NCBI RefSeq assembly: GCF_964194155.1
Contig: NC_135916.1
Location: forward strand, 1,364,001 to 1,428,000
Direction: 5' to 3'
Origin: Cetorhinus maximus
Taxonomy: Eukaryota
DNA: 64,000 nt
The notes under the pieces are model-generated. The model ran no database searches, was not told the DNA's origin, and saw nothing but the letters and a program-made list of their open reading frames with translations. This document shows, in pieces, positions 16,541 through 47,914 of the stretch; position 1 is the stretch's first letter, and the number at the start of each line of letters is the position of its first letter. A program made the position numbers and the translations under genes.

Positions 16541-17559
16541 GACTTCTGAAGGGGGAGAGGGGAAAATAAATCTTTGTATTTTTTTATTAAGAGGCACTGC
16601 TTTGCCACCAATGCATCCTCTTTTCACAATACCATCGTGAGTCCCAAAAATGCCTTGGTTTTATTTAGATCAGTTTTCACGAATTACCGATCTTCCTACC
16701 CGAGGACCACGGCTGCACCCAATGTAATGTCGAATTTCATCAGGAGAAACTATTCTCAAACCTTGTATTCCCCCTTCGTCGCTCTAACTTTATTTTTTTT
16801 TCCATCGGTTTCTATTTCTGGGTCTTTGACGCATGACAGGACCTGGGAGGTACCAGCTTTATACGGATCAGCCTGTATCGATGCAGCATGTTGTCTGAAC
16901 AGAGCTTTATTCTGGCCTCCCTCTGAACAATCAGAAAAATAATCCGAATTCAAGACGGGTTATAAGGCAGACATTGACTGGCTCTTGCTGCCGATTCTAT
17001 TCAGATCAGATTTTACAGCCGGCATGAATCAGACCAATATCGATTTACAGACATGAAAAATAAAACTACCCTTAATCACCTCTATTCTGCAACACGGGCC
17101 GAACAGAAGGTTTGAACAGATAGCTGTTTGATGGCCGCCCAGGACACGATGGACTGTTTCTATGTTGTACAACTTTATGACTGTATCAGAAGGGAAAACT
17201 CTGCTTTTGGCGCTCGGTTTGGACTATACTAAACAGGCATTTCGGAATAATTGTGGAAGAGAGTTTGAATGAAAGTGGGGTATTGGATAAATCCATTAAA
17301 TTGTGGTCCGACGGGCAACGGCACATGGTTGTGATGTACTGTCAAAGGCCAAATGTTATTCACACCCAACACATAATGAAGCCGGAATGAGAGAGGGATG
17401 CAGTTTCCGCCAGTTCATTTTACCTAATACAATAATAAGAACATAATCGTTCATCAATGTAAATTTCGACAGATACACGGTTTAAATAAACGGTCTGCAA
17501 GCCCCCCTCCCCCATAAAGACCCCACGGCGCATCCATTCACCAGCAGAAACAGGAATCA

Positions 17560-17955
17560 CACCATTTTCTCTTGAACATCTATAGCGCGTTGACATGAAT
17601 AAACCCAGTCAGTTGATGAGGTTGATGTGTGAGGGCCAAAATTTCCCCCATCAATAGGAGTTTTATTCCAGCCTGTTGCAAACCGATCAGGGAATGAATG
17701 AGAATTTAATCCGAGTTCCAAACCAGGAAGTCGGAGCTGGGACCGAATTGGGGCTCTCAAACATCGAGATTTTATGATATTTCTACTTTGAGATTGATTT
17801 TATCTGCCTTCAAACTAGGTTTATTTTAATGTCAGTTACTCGTCCCTCTGAAATTGGCGGGCATTTTGAAATTGATGAACTGTCAGTTTCTGCTCCACCA
17901 ATCAGGGCCCAGAAATCCATGCAGCCCGCTGCTCTTTTCAAATTTCTCGGCGGAT
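17560..17955 (+). pseudogene. truncated H3 upstream/promoter region with no CDS
   Basis: Matches about 2050-2430 and breaks at TTCTCGGCGG. Confidence 0.8.
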
Positions 17956-17965
17956 TTCCTTCTTA

Positions 17966-18449
17966 TAAATCCTTCTTATCTCTAACACTGTAATGTTCGC
18001 TGTCGACAATATTTCACGCGAATTGAAGACTCCCACTTCGATTTAAACCTGATTTACAGCGGCTCCTTCACCCGATCGCTGACATGACCTCTACTTTTAG
18101 ACCGAAATCTTGAAAACAACAAAGAAATTGTCTTGAAATCTCACTTTGGGGTTAAGCTGGGGAGCAGGGGGTGTATTTCTTTGGAAAATATTTTAACCTT
18201 ACCCAAGCGGGGCTCGGAAATTTCCTGATCAGAGCGGACACACAAACACAGTTTCATTCCTCTGACTCGCCCGCCCACTTCAAACACTCTCTTACACAAT
18301 GTTCACATTTAGATGTTCATTGGCAACAAGATGAACAATTGTGAATGTCTCGGTAGAGATTTCGTTCTCTTTTCGATCTTTGCTCCGATTTCTATTTATT
18401 TGCTGTCGATTGTGAATTCAGCTAACTTTAAATACTCTGAGGCATTGGA
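17966..18449 (-). other. inverted copy of the H1 upstream region
   Basis: Reverse complement of about 13935-14418. Confidence 0.85.
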
Positions 18450-18534
18450 AGAAGGGTAAGATCCCGAGCAAATTGTAAACCTCTGAACCCAAAGGCTCTT
18501 TTCAGAGCCACCCACATTTCACATGAAAGAACTG
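18450..18534 (+). pseudogene. orphan H1 3' UTR with stem-loop + HDE
   Basis: Matches 15300-15384; stem-loop 18494-18509; no H1 CDS upstream. Confidence 0.88.
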
Positions 18535-21499: not shown

Positions 21500-22230
21500 C
21501 GATCTCTTAACCACCAGCACTTTAGCCTCTTTGGCCTACAAATTATTTTCCTCACTTTGTCACCGGGTAACTGTCCTTTGCTTCCTTTACTCGGTGTTTG
21601 GGATGAATTGAGATCATTTAAAAGGCAAATATTTTAATAATAAGGGAAGTTTTTCGCGAATTCTTGAGACTGGATTTAAATAGTTGCAGCACATACTACT
21701 GATGTCTGTAACATGTAACAGTGCTAGCAGGATGCGTCTCACTCTAACCCACCCTTTCACAGATATCATCAGGAATGTTGTCATTACGAAGCGATAGGGA
21801 TGTTCACACATGTACTAAAACCCGGATTCAGCTCCAAATGCACCAAAGAGCCACTAAGTCGGTCAGAGAAAGAGCTGCGATCTCTTGTTAAACAATCTAG
21901 CTCCTAAAACCCTCGGGCCTACAATTTATTTAAGTCCTTTAGTTAATCCGGTCTCTCCCTCTGCTGCATTTGGGGATATGGGGTGATTCCATTTATAGTT
22001 GTTTAGCAATTCACGTCATTGAATTAGAGATGGGATGAGTTAATTATTCAATGAACGTTTCCCTGAACATTGTCAATTGGTCATATATAGATGCAGCACA
22101 GACTCCTGATTTCTGGAAAAAGGCAACAGCACCAGCGTCTCGTTGTAACCAGCACTTTCACAGATCGCATTAGAAATATGTCATTCCGAATCGATAGGGA
22201 TGTTATCGCGCATACGGATAGACAACAGGT

Positions 22231-22271
22231 CGCCCTTTTCACTGATCAAGTGAGTGGCTCTGAAAAGAGCC
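22231..22271 (-). terminator. histone 3' stem-loop + HDE (H2A)
   Basis: Minus strand GGCTCTTTTCAGAGCC at 22256-22271. Confidence 0.93.
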
Positions 22272-22301
22272 TTTGGGTTCTCAGTTTAAAGAATGGTCGC
22301 T

Positions 22302-22745
<444 letters not shown>

Positions 22746-23419
22746 TCAGTTCTCTTATACCCTCAGGAGGAATGGTGGTGCGCTCAGAGCTGATTGGTCA
22801 ATTATATTATAGCTCATAATATTCTTCATGTTACCAATCAGATTTCTGCCTGATTCACCGATGCGGGCAAGCAACGTATGAAGTCGGAAGTTAAGGGCGC
22901 CAAATCATCAGTTAAACAAACGATTATATATTTCAAATTTGAAATGACCGCCAAAAAATTAATCCAAGGAAATATCGCACAGAAATCGTTTTAGCTAAAC
23001 AAAGGAAAATTCCTTTACAAATCGTCCTAATGCTTAACATTAAAGCAGTTCTGTTACAGAATGTTAGAAGCTTTCTTGCTCTCTTTTCCTCGATAACAGT
23101 TTACCCGAAACTGTAGGTTTCTGGTTTTGCCTGTGGACAAGAGGACAATAAAGGCGCCAATATTCCAGAATCCAAACTTTTGTTTTATACAATTTCGTGA
23201 GTGTGAAGAGCGGATTGCACATTTTTTGGTGCAAATTTGCCGGTATTGAAACTGAGGCTTCCTACACCGCCAGGACTTATACGGAATGAATTGATCAAAT
23301 CAACTCTTATAATGCTGGGGAGGGATAGCATCATTGAGGGGTCAAAGATAGACTCTGTTTGATTACATTTATGCAACAAGGCAGGGTCTATTCTGAAGCA
23401 GCAAGCATACGTTGTATTC

Positions 23420-24093
23420 ACAGTTTTGGTCCCGTCGCTTGAGGAAGGATGTAACTCTTTCGAGTACAATCACAGTTCTTGGTTTCCGGGAGTGGGACAT
23501 GAACCCACAACCCTCTGATTCAAAGGCGAGGGTGCTATTAACTGAGCCACAGCTGACACCTTGAGGAAGGCTGTAGTTGCACTGGAGGCGGTTCGGAGGA
23601 TGTTCACTAGATTGATTCCAGAGATGCGAGGCTAGTCTAATGATGAGAGATTGAGCAGTTTAGGCCTATAGTCGCCCGAGTTTGGAAGGATGATAGGAGA
23701 TCTAATTGAGGTATATAAGATGCTAAATGGGATAGACAAAGTCGACATGGAGCGAATGTTTTCCCTCGTGGGGCATTCTAGAACGAAAGGCCATAGTTTT
23801 TGGCTAAGGGGTGGTAGATTACAATCAGAGATTAGGAGGAATTCCTGTTTTCAAAGGGCCATGAACCTGTGGAATTCACTACCTCAGAGTGCAATGGATG
23901 CCGGGGCGCTGAATAAATTTAAGGGTGAGGTGGACAGATTTTTTAATTAGTAACGGGTTGAAAGGTTATGGGGAGAGGGCTGGAAATTGTCGTTGAGGCC
24001 AAAATGAGATCAGCCATGATCGTAATGAATGGCAGAGCAGGATCGAGGGGTTTAATTGCCTACTCCTGTTCCTTGTTCTTATGTTTTTTATGT
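23420..24093 (+). mobile_element. 5'-truncated CR1 LINE 3' end
   Basis: GDLIEVYK and NLWNSLP motifs, TTCTTATG-type tail, flanking TGTATTC repeat; absent at the paralogous site near 4955. Confidence 0.9.
23483..23560 (-). mobile_element. tRNA-derived SINE head nested in CR1
   Basis: A-box TGGCTCAGTT, B-box-like GGTTCATGTCC; flanked by a TTGAGGAAGG(A/C)TGTA direct repeat. Confidence 0.7.
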
Positions 24094-24519
24094 ATTCCAG
24101 ACAAAAAATAACAATTCTCTGCAGGCTATGTGATTCTGGGGTTAAGCCTACCCATCATTATCTGGTATTTAAATGTAGCTTTCATTCACTGACACTCTTT
24201 GGTCAATAATATTGTGTTTTTCTCACTAAATTGAAAACACCGAAATATGTTTCTGTTTTTGTTTTTATCTCTGCAACATTCAGTTTTAAGTCAGTGTGGA
24301 TTTTACCTGGTGCATGAAAATCCCTGGACATTATTTTATATTTCAGTCGACATATGTTGCTGCTAATATCAGAGTATGTTTCTATTGTCATTTTATTCCC
24401 CACGTTATCTGTTAAATCATTCTATGGGTGCATGGAATACTTGTTTCTTCATGATATATAAATGTGAACTTTAATCTGTAATGGCTATTATTCCAAACAA
24501 AATTAGGGAAAAACAATGA

Positions 24520-25442
24520 ATGACAGACCGATTGTCTATTATGTCATAACAGGACACTTAGACAATATCAACGAAATTGGACAAAGACTGCATGCAGTTG
24601 TGAAAGGAAATCATCTTGGACAATCCTATTGGAACTTTTTTGGAGAGGTAACTAGCAAAATAGACAAGGGAGAATCAAATGATATGGTGTATTTGGATTT
24701 TCAGAAAGCTGTTGATAAAGGCCCACAAAAGAGGTTTGTGTACTACATTGAAGTGCATTGGATGGGGGTAATATATGGGCATGGATTGAGAAAAGATTAG
24801 CAAACAGGAAACAGAGAGCAGGAATAAGTCAGTCTTTTTGAGAATGGCAGGAGGTGACAAGTGATGTAGAAAAGATATCAGTGCCTGGGCCCCAGTATTC
24901 AAAATATTCCACAATTATTTTGATGAAGGAACCAAAGGTAATATTTCGAAGATTGCTGATGACACAAAGCTAGGAGGGAATGTGAGAGATGAGGAGGAAA
25001 TTAAGAGTGTTCATGGAGATTGAGAGAAGATGAGAGAGTGGACAGAAACAGGGCAGACGCTGTATAACGTGGATAGATGTGAATTTACCCACGTTGGCAG
25101 GTAAAAAACAATGGCAGAGTTTATTTAAGTAGTGATAGGTTGGGTAATTTTGATATATGAGGGTACCTCCGTGCAGCAAATGATGACCAGGCTGATTCTT
25201 GGGCTGGCAGGGTTGTTGCATGAGGAGAGATTGAAAAGTTTTGGTCTGTATTCACTCAAATTTTGTAGAATGAAAGGGAGATGTAGTTGAAATACTGACA
25301 GGGCTGTACAGACCTGGTGCAGGGATGATGTTTCCTCTGAGTGGGAAGTCTAGAACAAGTGTTCATAATCTCTGGATAGGGGGTAGGCCATTTAGGACTG
25401 TGATGAGCAGAAACATCTTCACTCGGAGGGTGGTGAACATGT
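24520..25442 (+). mobile_element. decayed CR1 RT fragment (paralogue of 5370-6357)
   Basis: VYLDFQKA and IADDTK motifs. Confidence 0.88.
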
Positions 25443-26239
25443 GATCAAGCTGCATTCATTTTGTTACCTCGAGTATCTTGTATTATATGTGAATGAATAT
25501 ATTTTCCCCTCTGTGTATCAATGAGTATCTGTGATATTTGCATGAGTTGGATTAACTCTATATCTAATATATTACGCTATCCACAAAAGTGGGATTTCAT
25601 TTGAATGTCTCAACATCTGGAATTAGATGTGAAGTTCAAGTTGTTATTCATATAGTCAATCAGTTTCTGTGATTCTGAATGTGACTGTGACTCAGTACTT
25701 GTCAGGTTCTGGTAAGTGATTGCTAGTGTTAGCCTGCCGACTTGATTAATGCATTGAAGAAATAGTTTTCACAAACATGCAAGGGATAAAAGTTAGGTAA
25801 AGACAAAACCTACACATGTACAATAATGGATTCATATACACAGAGCACAAATTTGAGATACACAATCAGTACAATAATTGAGATTTATGGAATTAATTCC
25901 AACACAGCTGACGGTCAGGAGGTAGACAATTAAATTTGATGTAAATAAATTCCAAAACTACATTCTGTATCAGAGAAAGACAAATGGGAAATTAGCCCTG
26001 CACACTCCCACACAAACACTCAAACACCCGGATAATCATGCACTAACACACACAGACACACACGCAAAGCATGTGTGGCTGTTTTCTCAGAGACATTGCC
26101 CTGACTGTCACTCAGGCTGTTTCGCCCCGCCTCTCACTCTCTCTCTATCTCTCTCTCCCTTTCTCAGTCAGGTCGGGGCGGGCTGTATAAAAGCGGAACG
26201 TGAAGCAGCTCCCAACTCATTCAGCAGCGATTTGACTGA

Positions 26240-26560
<321 letters not shown>

Positions 26561-26593
26561 ACAAATCGACCCGACTCTATAACAAAACCCAAA

Positions 26594-26635
26594 GGCTCTT
26601 CTAAGAGCCGCCCACAACCTCACATTGAGAGCATT
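26594..26635 (+). terminator. histone 3' stem-loop + HDE (H4)
   Basis: GGCTCTTCTAAGAGCC. Confidence 0.92.
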
Positions 26636-27569
26636 GACCTCAGAGCGGGAGAGGGAAAGCGAGATGTAGTTTTATATAAACACAGCGTTTCCATCTGCTC
26701 ATTCTCCATTCACAAAACTATCGTGAGTCACACAAGGTTTCATGGTTTAATTTTGTTCGGTTTTCGGGAATTCACTTCCTTTCTACCTCTCGAAGCTCAA
26801 CTCCAAGCTTAGCTGACAGCTCCCAAACTAACACCCAGTCCACAAGATAAAGGCCATCATTTATTATACTTTGAACAGGAGGAGCTATTTTGAGACACAA
26901 CATTCTCGCTTCTTCGCACTATTTTCACCCTGTCTTTTTTTCATTACAAACTGAATCAAACAGATATGACATACATAACATGAGTTCCTGAGTCTCATTC
27001 ACAAAGACTTTGGCGGAGTTGCAGTCTGAAGGCTGCACCTTAGTTCACACAAAACCAATGAATGAAACCTGTCTTTGATAAATGCAAAGTTTCATGTTTA
27101 AATGTGCATCAGAGCCGGGAAACAGTAATGGTTTAATTTCTTGCAGAAAATCGCCGTTAAAGTGAACACAGTTCCGAACGATTAAAAGATAGGCCTCCCT
27201 TATTGTACTATATCATATTTAATTGCAAGTCCCACACTCGCTTTTAAAGTCAGGAATCCATTCGTGTTTAAACTCAGACCTTTTTGCAGTCCTAACAGCC
27301 GGCGGAAATTCACGTTTACCGAGTGCTGCGGTTAAGCAATATCGGCCTGGATGTACAAGTGTGATATTATTTTAAAATAATAAAATTATATTATAATATT
27401 GTATCCAGATTGCAGGTTATTAATTCACTCCAGTTTGAAGTGGTTCCGAATGAGTATTTATCTTGTTGCACGACTCGTGTTCGGTCTGCAGATGGAGCCA
27501 GGTCACAATAACTTGCACCTTATCGATTATGAACTCATCGCCCTCCATACTGATCGGAACAAGCTGTTA

Positions 27570-43457: not shown

Positions 43458-44129
43458 ATGACCGATACTGCAGCCGCCGAAACGGCTCCTCCAGCCGCTC
43501 CCGCCGCCCAGGTCAAGACTCCCAAGAAGAAGAAGAAGGCGGCTCCCAGGAGCAGTGCAGCCGGTCCCAAGCTGGGCGAGCAGATCCTCAAGGTTGTGGC
43601 GGATTGCAGCGATCGCAAGGGGATGTCGCTGCCCGCGATCAAGAAGGCGCTGCGCGGCAATGGGGTGGATGTGGAGAAACTCGGCTCCCAGATCAAGCAA
43701 AGCATCAAGAGGAATGTGAAGAATGGCTTGCTGGTTCAGGTCAAGGGCACGGGCGCCTCGGGCTCCTTCAAAGTCCCTAAGAACACAACCCCAGGGAAAG
43801 TGGGAAAGAAGGCGAAGGCAGCAGTTGGCAAGAAATCTCCAGTGAAGAAAGCTGCAGCCAAGAAGGTGACAGCAAAGAAAGCAGCGGCCAAGAAAACTCC
43901 AGTCAAGAAAGCAGCGGCCAAGAAATCCCCGGCCAAGAAATCCCCGGCCAAGAAAGCAACGGCCAAGAAATCCCCAGCGAAGAAAACAGCGGCCAAGAAA
44001 ACAGCCAAGAAGGCGGCAACTCCCAAAAAGCCGGTGAAGAAAGCAGCCCCCAAGAAAAAGTCTCCGGCCAAGAAGTTGACGGGCGTCAAAAAAGTGGCGA
44101 TAGGGAGGGCCAAGCCCAAAGGGAGATAA
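43458..44129 (+). CDS. H1: linker histone H1
   Basis: 223 aa; paralogue of 14630-15286 with a 5-aa longer tail; AAACACA box upstream. Confidence 0.97.
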   Translation: MTDTAAAETAPPAAPAAQVKTPKKKKKAAPRSSAAGPKLGEQILKVVADCSDRKGMSLPAIKKALRGNGVDVEKLGSQIKQSIKRNVKNGLLVQVKGTGASGSFKVPKNTTPGKVGKKAKAAVGKKSPVKKAAAKKVTAKKAAAKKTPVKKAAAKKSPAKKSPAKKATAKKSPAKKTAAKKTAKKAATPKKPVKKAAPKKKSPAKKLTGVKKVAIGRAKPKGR

Positions 44130-44186
44130 GCAAAGACAGCAAAGAAGGGAAAGATCCCGAGCAAATTGTAAACCTCTGAACCCAAA

Positions 44187-44227
44187 GGCTCTTTTCAGAG
44201 CCACCCACATTTCACATGAAAGAGCTG
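44187..44227 (+). terminator. histone 3' stem-loop + HDE (H1)
   Basis: GGCTCTTTTCAGAGCC ... GAAAGAGCTG. Confidence 0.95.
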
Positions 44228-44982
44228 ATCCCCTGATCATTTGATCCCTGTCTCCGCGCTGGGAGCTGATTTCAGGTGGAAATGTTTTATTTTCCAGTAA
44301 ATCCAGTATTCCCGCTGAATCACTGAAATGCGCTTCACCCGCACTTCCACTCCCTCCCCCAGCTCCGACTCTCATTCCTGCAATAACACACATCGATAAC
44401 CTTTCCGATTAGTATCCGGGGTGTGTCAGAGAGCAGTTAATGTTTATCTTCCTTTCTAAATTCAAATATTCAGGGTGGGAGTCTGCAATAGAGAAACCAG
44501 GTGTAAAGGAAACTCCTCACAGCTGACACCCAAACCCATTATTTTCTCTCATTCGGTTGGGAGATGTTGGCTAAATTTCCAATCACCCTGGGAGGGGAGA
44601 TGTGGGTGGGGATGAAATTGGAGCTGGGGTTGAAATCGAAGCAGAAATTGACTCGTATGGAAAGTTTATTGTTGAGGCGGAAATGAGACGGACAAGACGA
44701 TGTTTAATAGATTCGAGTTGCTAATTAGCTGCTTCATGATATTCAAGTGTGTAAGTTCTGTTCAAAGCGTCTGTTCACTTCCCTTTAGAATTGGACAAAA
44801 TACAATTCTGTTTCTGGCAGGCAGGAGGAGGAGCTGGTTTACCAAAGACGTTGTTCTGTCTGTCACTCAGTCTCTCCCGCCCCGCGTGTCTCTCTCTCTC
44901 CCTTCCTCAGTCAGGTCGGGGCGGGCTGTATAAAAGCGGAACGTGAAGCAGCTCCCCTCTCATTCAGCAGCGATTTGACTGA

Positions 44983-45303
<321 letters not shown>

Positions 45304-45542: not shown

Positions 45543-45610
45543 TTACCCCGAGAACCACAAAGGCTCTTTTAAGAGCCACCAAGTCGGTCAGAGAAAGAGC
45601 TGCGATCTCT
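45543..45610 (+). pseudogene. orphan H3 3' end (stem-loop + HDE); CDS deleted
   Basis: Matches the H3 3' UTR at 21440-21507; stem-loop 45562-45577. Confidence 0.9.
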
Positions 45611-45959
45611 TGTTAAAAACTCCAGCACCTAAAACCCTCAAACCTACAATTTATTTTCTTTCCTTTTGATTACCCGGTTCCCTCCTTCTGCTGCATTTGG
45701 GGTTATGAGGTGATTCCGTTTATATTTGTTTGTAATTTTACATCATTTAGTTGGAAATGGGATGAGTTAATTATTCAAAGAACATTTCCCTGAACATTGG
45801 CAATTGGTCATATATAGATGCAGCACAGACTCCTCATGTCTGGAAAAGGCAACAGCACCAGCGTCTCGTTGTAAGCAGCGCTTTCACAGATCGCATTAGA
45901 AATATAAAGTCATTCCGAATCGATAGGGATGTTATCGTACATACGGATAGACAATAGGT

Positions 45960-46000
45960 CGCCCCTTTCACTGATCAAGTGAGTGGCTCTGAAAAGAGCC
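45960..46000 (-). terminator. histone 3' stem-loop + HDE (H2A)
   Basis: Minus strand GGCTCTTTTCAGAGCC at 45985-46000. Confidence 0.93.
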
Positions 46001-46030
46001 TTTGGGTTCTCAGTTTAAAGAATAGTCGCT

Positions 46031-46474
<444 letters not shown>

Positions 46475-46749
46475 TCAGTTCCCTTATACCCTCAGGAGGA
46501 ATGGTGGTGCGCTCAGAGCTGATTGGTCAATTATATTATAGCTCATAATATTCTTCATATTACCAATCAGATTTCTGCCTGACTCACCAATGCGGGCAAG
46601 CAACGTATGAAGTCGGAAGTTAAGGGCGCCAAATCATCAGTTAAACAAACGATTATATATTTCAAACTGGAAAAGTCCGCCAAAAAATTAATCAAAGGAA
46701 ACATCGCACAGAAATCGTCTTAGCTAAACAAAGGACAATTCCTTTACAA

Positions 46750-46809
46750 ATGGATGTGGTGTACGCTCTGAAACGCCAGGGCCGCACTCTCTATGGATTC
46801 GGCGGCTGA
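46750..46809 (+). pseudogene. H4: 5'-truncated H4 (codons 85-103); intact small [22 protein letters not shown]
   Basis: Identical to the last 60 nt of the H4 CDS; stem-loop at 46843-46858. Confidence 0.9.
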
Positions 46810-47914
46810 ACAAATCGACCCGACTCTATAACAAAACCCAAAGGCTCTTCTAAGAGCCGCCCACAACCTCACATTGAGAGCAGTGACCTTCGAGCGGGAG
46901 AGGGAAAGCGAGATGTAGTTTTATATAAACACAGCGTTTCCATCTGCGCATTCTCCATTCACAAAACTATCGTGAGTCACACAAGGTTTCATGGTTTAAT
47001 TTAGTTCGGTTTTCAGGAATTCACTTCCTTTCTTCCTCTCGAAGCTCAACTCCAAGCTTAGCTGACAGCTCCCAAACTAACACCGAGTCCACAAGATAAA
47101 GGCCATCATTTATTATAATATGATCAGGAGGAGCTATTTTGAGACACAACATTCTCGCTTCTTCGCACTATTTTCACCCTGTCTTTTTTTCATTACAAAC
47201 TGAATCAAACAGATATGACATACATAACATGAGTTCCTGAGTCTCATTCACAAAGACTTTGGCGGAGTTGCAGACTGAAGGCTACACCTTAGTTCACACA
47301 AAACCAATGAATGAAACCTGTCTTTGATAAATGCAAAGTTTCATGTTTAAATGTGCATCAGAGCCGGGAAACAGTAATGGTTTAATTTCTTGCAGAAAAT
47401 CGCCGTTAAATTTAACCCAGTCAGTTCCAAACTATTAAAAGATAGGCCTCCCTTATTGTACTATATCATATTTAATTGCAAGTACCACACTCGCTTTTAA
47501 AATCAGGAATCCATTCGTGTTTAAACTCGGACCTTTTTACAGTCCTAACAGCCGGCGGAATTTCACGTTTACCGAATGCTGCGGTTAAGCAATATCGGCC
47601 TGAATGTACAAGTGTGATATTATTTTAAAAATAATAAAATTATATTATAATATTGTATCCAGATTGCAGGTTATTAATTCACTCCAATTTGAAGTGGTTC
47701 CGAATGAGTATTTATCTTGTTGCACGACTCGTGTTCGGTCTGCAGATGGAGCCAGGTCACAATAACTTGCACCTTATCGTTTCTGAACACACGTCGAGAA
47801 GCAACGGGCCTGATGCTGCTCTTGGAACTTGCCGAGCTCGCCTCCCGCCCCCCGTTAAAGAGGCAATGGTAGTGGCAAACTCACCGCCCTCCATACTGAT
47901 CGGAACAAGCTGTT

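What the first reader, a model, noticed from the sequence alone, without database searches (positions are those of the whole stretch)
46560..46890. Stand-alone pre-osteogenic growth peptide (H4 85-103) minigene behind the H2A promoter
Seen: H2A upstream sequence is fused (2-nt AT microhomology) to H4 exactly at the Met85 codon. This gives a complete ORF at 46750-46809, [19 protein letters not shown], with an intact stem-loop (46843-46858) and HDE. Upstream on the same strand are CCAAT at 46563 and 46587, an ETS-like CGGAAGT, an E2F-like GGCGCCAAA and TATATAT at 46654-46660, with no ATG between the TATA and the ORF. Known: in mammals, initiation at H4 AUG85 yields this 19-mer, the precursor of osteogenic growth peptide ([14 protein letters not shown]); H2A promoters are normally bidirectional with H2B in this slot. 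Inference: a rearrangement may have created a dedicated OGP-precursor gene, notable in a probable cartilaginous fish. It could equally be a chance breakpoint, and the Kozak -3 base is C (weak).
Basis: partly seen in the sequence, partly recalled or inferred. Interest (0 to 1): 0.8.

Follow-up and report, generated by a model that had tools for sequence, protein, structure and literature searches.

The report
Deletion-clipped histone H4 gene remnant
In a histone gene array, a 3.5-kb deletion joined the DNA upstream of an H2A gene to the last 19 codons of a neighbouring H4 gene, and this remnant, present in three large duplicated blocks, is likely an ordinary broken gene rather than a dedicated bone-peptide gene.

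Summary
The sequence is as described: a 19-codon ORF (46750-46809, H4 85-103) with stem-loop and HDE is joined through a 2-nt AT microhomology to H2A upstream DNA. It is a 3,480-bp deletion: five undeleted sister units remain in the array. The junction occurs 3 times, inside blocks of 53 kb or more that are 98.4-99.1% identical, so one event plus block duplication. The gene reading is weak. No H2B sits in this slot (0 of 33 H2A upstream regions). The CCAAT and E2F-like sites are ordinary H2A promoter elements. The 'TATA' aligns with a poly-T tract in all 8 H2A promoters from other contigs. The junction replaces the Kozak context that all 53 intact H4 genes carry at AUG85. The array holds many other lesions, including another 5'-clipped H4 in 3 copies. 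About 16% of breakpoints in H4 would leave AUG85 first. Expression and read support stay open, so leaky antisense expression is not excluded. Side finding: all 5 retroelement insertions in the array's H2A/H3/H4 coding sequences abut AT|G of the start codon.

The parts
46750..46809 (+). 19-codon ORF = H4 codons 85-103 (preOGP-identical); remnant of a trailing H4 gene
   Evidence: identical in 3 of 3 junction copies
46750..46751 (+). AT microhomology at the deletion junction
   Evidence: paralog left end 23021-23022 and right start 26501-26502
46843..46858 (+). histone 3' stem-loop, same sequence as in 53 of 53 full-length H4 genes of the array
46874..46885 (+). histone downstream element (HDE)-like purine-rich stretch, inherited from the parent H4
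   Evidence: against window 26624-26635; function inferred
46424..46749 (.). H2A upstream/promoter region: CCAAT at 46522 (-), 46563, 46587; E2F-like 46625-46633 and 46677-46684; no octamer/H2B box
46481..46488 (-). TATA box of H2A, facing H2A; a TATA at this position in 13 of 15 aligned H2A upstream regions
46654..46660 (+). TATATAT: array-specific variant of a poly-T tract; candidate outward TATA only
   Evidence: TATA-like in 5 of 15 aligned regions (all from this array), poly-T in 8 of 8 from other contigs
46031..46423 (-). intact H2A gene with stem-loop at 45985-46000
45543..45577 (+). second deletion junction in the same unit: the H3 coding sequence is gone, only its 3' stem-loop remains (3 copies)
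23023..26502 (+). in the undeleted sister unit: the 3,480 bp missing at the junction (LINE-like fragments, H4 promoter, H4 codons 1-84; no H2B)
43458..45303 (+). intact H1 (43458-44129) and H4 (44992-45303) of the same derived unit

Best explanation
A 3,480-bp deletion with a 2-nt microhomology removed the promoter and first 84 codons of a trailing H4 gene, the remnant was copied with its 50-kb-plus surroundings to three places, and it is likely an unselected 5'-truncated H4 pseudogene that at most receives leaky antisense transcription from the H2A promoter. Shown: the deletion relative to five sister units, the block duplications, the absence of an H2B slot, the loss of the native Kozak context. 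Inferred: repair by end joining, lack of selection, low or no expression.
For: Five undeleted H2A...H4 units remain; H2A ATG to Met85 is 3,807 bp in 4 and 3,693 bp in 1, against 327 bp here; flanks differ by only 2-3% on the right and 2-5% on the left. The 3 copies sit in co-linear blocks of 53-56 kb or more at 98.4-99.1% identity. The 984-kb array is full of lesions with similar copy numbers: H2A coding sequence absent with promoter-like remnant x13, H1 3' remnant x9, H3 stem-loop only x3 (same unit as the finding), H4[138-312] x3, H3[316-411] x1. The H4[138-312] control lost its TATA box yet is also in 3 copies, 5-12 differences in 2001 nt. 53 of 53 full-length H4 genes have ACCGCCATGG at AUG85; the junction changes -3 to C. 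CCAAT and E2F-like sites are shared with H2A promoters that face no such ORF; TATATAT is poly-T in 8 of 8 promoters from other contigs. The H2B box CATTAGCAT is in 21 of 30 H2B promoters and 0 of 15 H2A upstream regions.
Against: Landing on the Met85 codon itself is a roughly 1% event per H4-internal breakpoint, and the array shows only 3 distinct deletion breakpoints inside core-histone coding sequences. The geometry is gene-like: TATA-like motif 96 nt before the ATG, no upstream ATG, +4 G, intact stem-loop and HDE. The ORF has 0 differences among the 3 copies, though only about 1-1.5 are expected, so this has no power. Eukaryotic promoters commonly fire in both directions (PMC5881035, passages). 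No RNA data bear on the question.
Confidence: 0.75

Rival explanations
1. Accidental microgene: upstream antisense transcription from the active H2A promoter runs into the H4 remnant, is cut after the stem-loop by the histone 3' machinery instead of being degraded, and the ~180-nt RNA is translated into the 19-mer. Expressed, but not selected. All steps inferred.
For: Intact H2A promoter and gene; TATA-like motif, ATG-free leader, stem-loop and HDE in a workable order; antisense initiation is general at eukaryotic promoters and is normally removed by decay (PMC5881035, passages).
Against: The TATA-like motif is not conserved and arises in 7% of shuffles; -3 C; no H2B box; the same upstream DNA in the undeleted units leads into LINE-like fragments, not a gene.
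Confidence: 0.15
2. Dedicated, selected preOGP gene: the rearrangement was kept and amplified because it supplies OGP apart from H4.
For: ORF equals preOGP (PMC5133884, passages); 3 copies; exact start at Met85.
Against: Copies are passengers in 50-kb-plus blocks; a TATA-less clipped H4 also has 3 copies; Kozak context was weakened; the event is young (2-3% from sister units); 53 H4 genes in this array alone keep a strong AUG85; searches listed no paper on OGP in a cartilaginous fish or on a stand-alone preOGP gene.
Confidence: 0.03
3. Origin variant, compatible with the best explanation: the right-hand break was a retrotransposon endonuclease nick at AT|G of Met85, which would explain the exact landing.
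For: 5 of 5 retroelement insertions inside H2A/H3/H4 coding sequences of the array have their 3' end at AT|G of the start codon; directed searches found more on other contigs; the junction can be read in the same AT|G phase.
Against: No non-T base before G of Met85 anywhere in G000 (0 matches) and no A-tail at H3 Met90 (0 matches), so internal ATGs are not seen to be hit; no inserted or tail bases at the junction; the other 2 CDS-internal breakpoints are not at an ATG; the main element shows no AT|G preference in 30 copies from C1.
Confidence: 0.12
4. Assembly artefact: a chimeric join in a repetitive array.
For: None of the pieces listed bridges the junction; the one contig of run X1 that covers 46744 stops matching at 46751 with 10 letters left over, as an undeleted copy would.
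Against: Three copies at separate places, one inverted, with 20 variable columns in 802 around the junction and 1-1.6% block divergence; a second shared deletion in the same unit; one search hid 82 pieces, read 62% of X1 and drops human-like records such as H4 sequence.
Confidence: 0.05

Closest known systems
preOGP / osteogenic growth peptide from alternative initiation at AUG85 of mammalian histone H4 mRNA
   Same: Identical 19-residue product, H4 85-103 (PMC5133884, passages).
   Different: In mammals it comes from an intact H4 mRNA; here the ORF is isolated by a DNA deletion, its Kozak context is weaker, and no transcript, peptide or OGP pathway is shown in this animal.
5'-truncated replication-dependent histone pseudogenes in tandem arrays (birth-and-death / unequal exchange; recalled, not from a call)
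   Same: Promoter and 5' coding part lost by deletion, 3' end and genomic flank kept, spread by block duplication; several other cases in this array.
   Different: The breakpoint happens to keep an in-frame ATG and lies 327 bp from an intact divergent H2A gene.
Vertebrate head-to-head H2A/H2B bidirectional promoter (recalled)
   Same: CCAAT boxes on both strands upstream of H2A; an outward-facing ORF at a similar distance.
   Different: No H2B partner and no octamer/H2B box; in this genome H2B has its own promoter and, where an H2A is near, lies in tandem with it (9 of 30 loci).
Upstream antisense RNAs / PROMPTs
   Same: The ORF lies on the strand and at the distance where such RNAs start (PMC5881035, passages).
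   Different: Such RNAs are normally degraded; here a histone stem-loop and HDE could stabilise one. Untested.

Membership tests
Truncated histone pseudogene made by deletion | An undeleted parent arrangement exists and both sides of the junction map to it in order | tested here: met
   5 sister units; window 23022 to 26501-26503
Truncated histone pseudogene made by deletion | Genomic 3' flank continues past the stem-loop/HDE (not a retrocopy) | tested here: met
   1,042 nt at 96.6% to 26501-27537; no A-tail or target duplication at the junction
Truncated histone pseudogene made by deletion | No functional product | not testable with these tools
   no RNA holder available to lay; too young for a decay test
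preOGP source | ORF equal to H4 85-103 | tested here: met
preOGP source | Strong initiation context at AUG85 | tested here: not met
   -3 C, +4 G at the junction against -3 G, +4 G in 53 of 53 full-length H4
preOGP source | Transcript, translation, processing and secretion of OGP | not testable with these tools
   needs RNA-seq, Ribo-seq, peptide mass spectrometry
H2A/H2B bidirectional promoter | H2B head-to-head in sister copies | tested here: not met
   0 of 33 H2A upstream regions; 0 of the 30 best H2B loci, of 150 scored and 1853 candidates
H2A/H2B bidirectional promoter | Octamer/H2B box before an outward TATA | tested here: not met
   0 of 15 aligned regions; present in 21 of 30 H2B promoters
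H2A/H2B bidirectional promoter | Conserved outward TATA box | tested here: not met
   TATA-like in 5 of 15 regions, all from this array; poly-T in 8 of 8 from other contigs
Selected new gene | ORF more conserved than flanks, or shared with other individuals and species | tested here: inconclusive
   0 differences in 60 nt where 1-1.5 are expected; one search shows only undeleted-type ends in organism B at low depth and no listed bridging read in a second sample of organism A

The most novel reading that the evidence does not exclude
A deletion has put the preOGP reading frame, with a working histone 3' end, in the path of the H2A promoter's antisense transcription, so this animal makes a short, cell-cycle-regulated, stem-loop mRNA that yields the 19-residue OGP precursor with no H4 protein: a natural microgene that uncouples OGP from histone H4, now in three copies.
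Probability: 0.1. Interest if true: 0.7.

Novelty: new member of a known kind. Interest (0 to 1): 0.27.

Why it matters
As a broken histone gene it matters little: it is one of many lesions in a fast-rearranging array. If it were expressed and translated, it would show a peptide gene born in one deletion from antisense promoter leak plus a histone 3' end, and would separate OGP from H4, which cannot be done by knock-out in mammals (PMC9154745, passages). The start-codon insertion hot spot seen beside it may be the more valuable lead: several retroelement types break H2A, H3 and H4 genes at the same two-letter position.

Tried and rejected
Run search: no RNA holder listed; this is no evidence on expression. 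Read laying (4 of 24 listed runs): no listed piece bridges the junction and many pieces were hidden, so inconclusive; a closer look at the junction alone was not obtained, which leaves read support and presence in other individuals and species open. Recurrence of the Met85 break with other left flanks: 4 matches, of which 3 are the known copies and 1 (L131) is a decayed full-length H4 with a point change. Retrocopy origin: rejected, genomic flank continues 1 kb past the HDE. H2B replaced by the H4 remnant: rejected. H3[316-411] as a parallel minigene: many upstream ATGs, a frameshift, no TATA. AT|G as a genome-wide target of the Tx1-like element: not seen; first base after the tail T 18, G 8, C 4 of 30 copies, all from the start of C1. 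Earlier findings of the scan: nothing. Smith et al. 2005 on H4 leaky scanning is not held; the JBC 1999 AUG85 paper was seen only as a reference entry. Paper search returned nothing. The host's identity as a cartilaginous fish was not tested. No supplements were read.

Full report
1. Observation. Self-comparison of the window shows 45571-46751 matching 21846-23022 and 46750-47791 matching 26501-27537, the two overlapping in AT. Relative to that sister unit, 3,480 bp are missing: LINE-like fragments, the H4 promoter and H4 codons 1-84. The same derived unit has a second deletion that removed H3 and left its stem-loop.

2. Copies. The junction 23-mer has 3 matches in G000, all on C39, control 0. 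They differ at 20 of 802 aligned columns and lie in co-linear blocks of at least 53-56 kb at 98.4-99.1% identity, one inverted. This is one event carried by block duplication. Five undeleted units remain; they differ from the junction copies by 19-33 of about 1000 nt on the right and 6-17 of 328 nt on the left, so the event is young.

3. The array. In 984 kb of C39 there are 53 full-length H4, 41 H1, 40 H3, 32 H2A and 2 H2B; the unit is H1-H4-H3-H2A. None of 33 H2A upstream regions leads into H2B or has an octamer. Among the 30 best H2B loci (of 150 scored, 1853 candidates) none has a head-to-head H2A within 1.5 kb, 9 have a tandem H2A downstream and 21 carry their own CATTAGCAT box. The 'H2B slot' premise therefore fails for what I examined.

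4. The promoter. In an alignment of 15 H2A upstream regions the CCAAT and E2F-like sites are kept nearly throughout, and a TATA facing H2A is present in 13: these are H2A elements. The outward TATATAT is TATA-like in 5 of 15, all from this array, and poly-T in all 8 from other contigs. In 2000 dinucleotide shuffles of the last 126 nt a TATAWAW appears in 7% and an ATG-free leader in 73%.

5. Chance and selection. Other lesions reach similar or higher copy numbers: H2A absent with promoter-like remnant 13, H1 remnant 9, H3 stem-loop only 3, H4[138-312] 3, H3[316-411] 1. H4[138-312] has lost its TATA and has two out-of-frame ATGs before Met85, yet also has 3 copies. With upstream ATGs at 194 and 206 in 49 of 53 H4 genes, about 49 of 312 breakpoints would leave AUG85 first; exact landing is about 3 of 312 and brings no benefit, since it trades the ACCGCCATGG context of 53 of 53 genes for -3 C. 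The ORF shows 0 differences among copies, but 1-1.5 are expected from promoter and flank rates (my arithmetic), so the test has no power. Against my reading: only 3 distinct deletion breakpoints fall inside core-histone coding sequences in this array, and one hits this codon.

6. Reads. No RNA holder was listed. Laying 4 of the 24 listed runs gave no listed piece that bridges the junction; organism B showed the undeleted form at low depth; 82 pieces were hidden and human-like records are dropped. Read support and expression remain open.

7. Mechanism. Most likely (0.75): a break repaired with 2 nt of microhomology (inferred) made a 5'-truncated H4 pseudogene that rode along in duplications (shown), silent or nearly so (inferred). 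Next (0.15): antisense transcription from the H2A promoter, general at eukaryotic promoters and normally degraded (PMC5881035, passages), is stabilised by the stem-loop and yields some 19-mer without selection. A selected OGP gene gets 0.03, an artefact 0.05. The deletion also removes the coding regions that in mouse H4 mRNA position the ribosome on the first AUG (PMC8102920, passages), so any transcript would rely on ordinary scanning (inferred).

8. Known biology. preOGP is H4 85-103 from AUG85, trimmed by five residues (PMC5133884, passages); OGP cannot be ablated apart from H4 (PMC9154745, passages). Searches (listings) showed no stand-alone preOGP gene and no OGP work in cartilaginous fish; the library lacks most subscription papers. 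A shark and ray genome preprint (10.1101/2025.06.08.657570, two passages) mentions histone clusters without gene order.

9. Side lead. All 5 insertions found inside H2A, H3 or H4 coding sequences of the array have their 3' end at AT|G of the start codon (H2A at C39:1472280, 1516754; H3 at 1170163, 1807931, 1904377), from at least 3 element types, with target duplications of 13, 14 and about 35 nt where both ends are clear. Directed patterns gave 21 matches genome-wide; 15 have a tailed retroelement directly before the G (4 of them the C39 cases), several being duplicates of one event, and 6 are point changes, other joins or unrelated. These patterns see only this position. The main element has endonuclease, RT and a ZCCHC3-like ORF1 (Tx1-like by my recall), with 2,601 matches to its 3' end. 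Searches (listings) and PMC4494074 (passages, 0 hits for 'histone') showed no description. It could explain the landing at Met85, but no insertion was found at Met85 or H3 Met90, so I give that origin 0.12.

10. Verdict. Real junction, ordinary origin, gene function unsupported but not excluded. Novelty: new member of a known kind. Interest 0.27; 0.7 if the microgene proves expressed and translated (probability 0.1).

Noticed in passing
G000 C39:1170163, 1472280, 1516754, 1807931, 1904377; loci L136, L137, L139-L146, L149, L150, L152-L155: Retroelement insertion hot spot at histone start codons: 5 of 5 insertions inside H2A/H3/H4 coding sequences of the 984-kb array end at AT|G of the initiation codon, from at least 3 element types; more on C32 and C678, including two nested insertions at one H2A site. 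Not found in paper searches. Possibly more interesting than the assigned finding.
   Followed up: partly
L095:6610-9775 (-): Non-LTR retrotransposon with ZCCHC3-like/zinc-knuckle ORF1 and endonuclease-RT ORF2, 2,601 matches to its 3' end genome-wide; this copy is internally shortened.
   Followed up: partly
L172, L180, L181: Copies of that element whose tail abuts what I recall as U2 snRNA 5' sequence; may point to a preference for 5' ends of short non-polyadenylated Pol II genes.
   Followed up: no
G000 C39:0.95-1.91 Mb: Histone array almost without H2B (53 H4, 41 H1, 40 H3, 32 H2A, 2 H2B); most H2B matches lie on C32 and none of 30 examined is head-to-head with H2A.
   Followed up: partly
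G000 C39:1011712, 1109303, 1206417: Another 5'-clipped H4 (nt 138-312) in 3 copies, TATA lost.
   Followed up: yes
G000 C39:1309423, 1531985 and 11 others: 13 units keep an H2A-promoter-like piece at 77-79% identity with no H2A coding sequence behind it.
   Followed up: partly
window 17446-18509: Complex rearrangement: H3 promoter piece, inverted H1 upstream piece and an H1 stem-loop without coding sequence; 9 copies in the array.
   Followed up: partly
G000 C39:945378: Tx1-like element in reverse orientation ending 3 nt behind the ATG of an H2A-like 5' remnant.
   Followed up: no
L122 (C450): Two H2B genes head-to-head about 860 nt apart.
   Followed up: no
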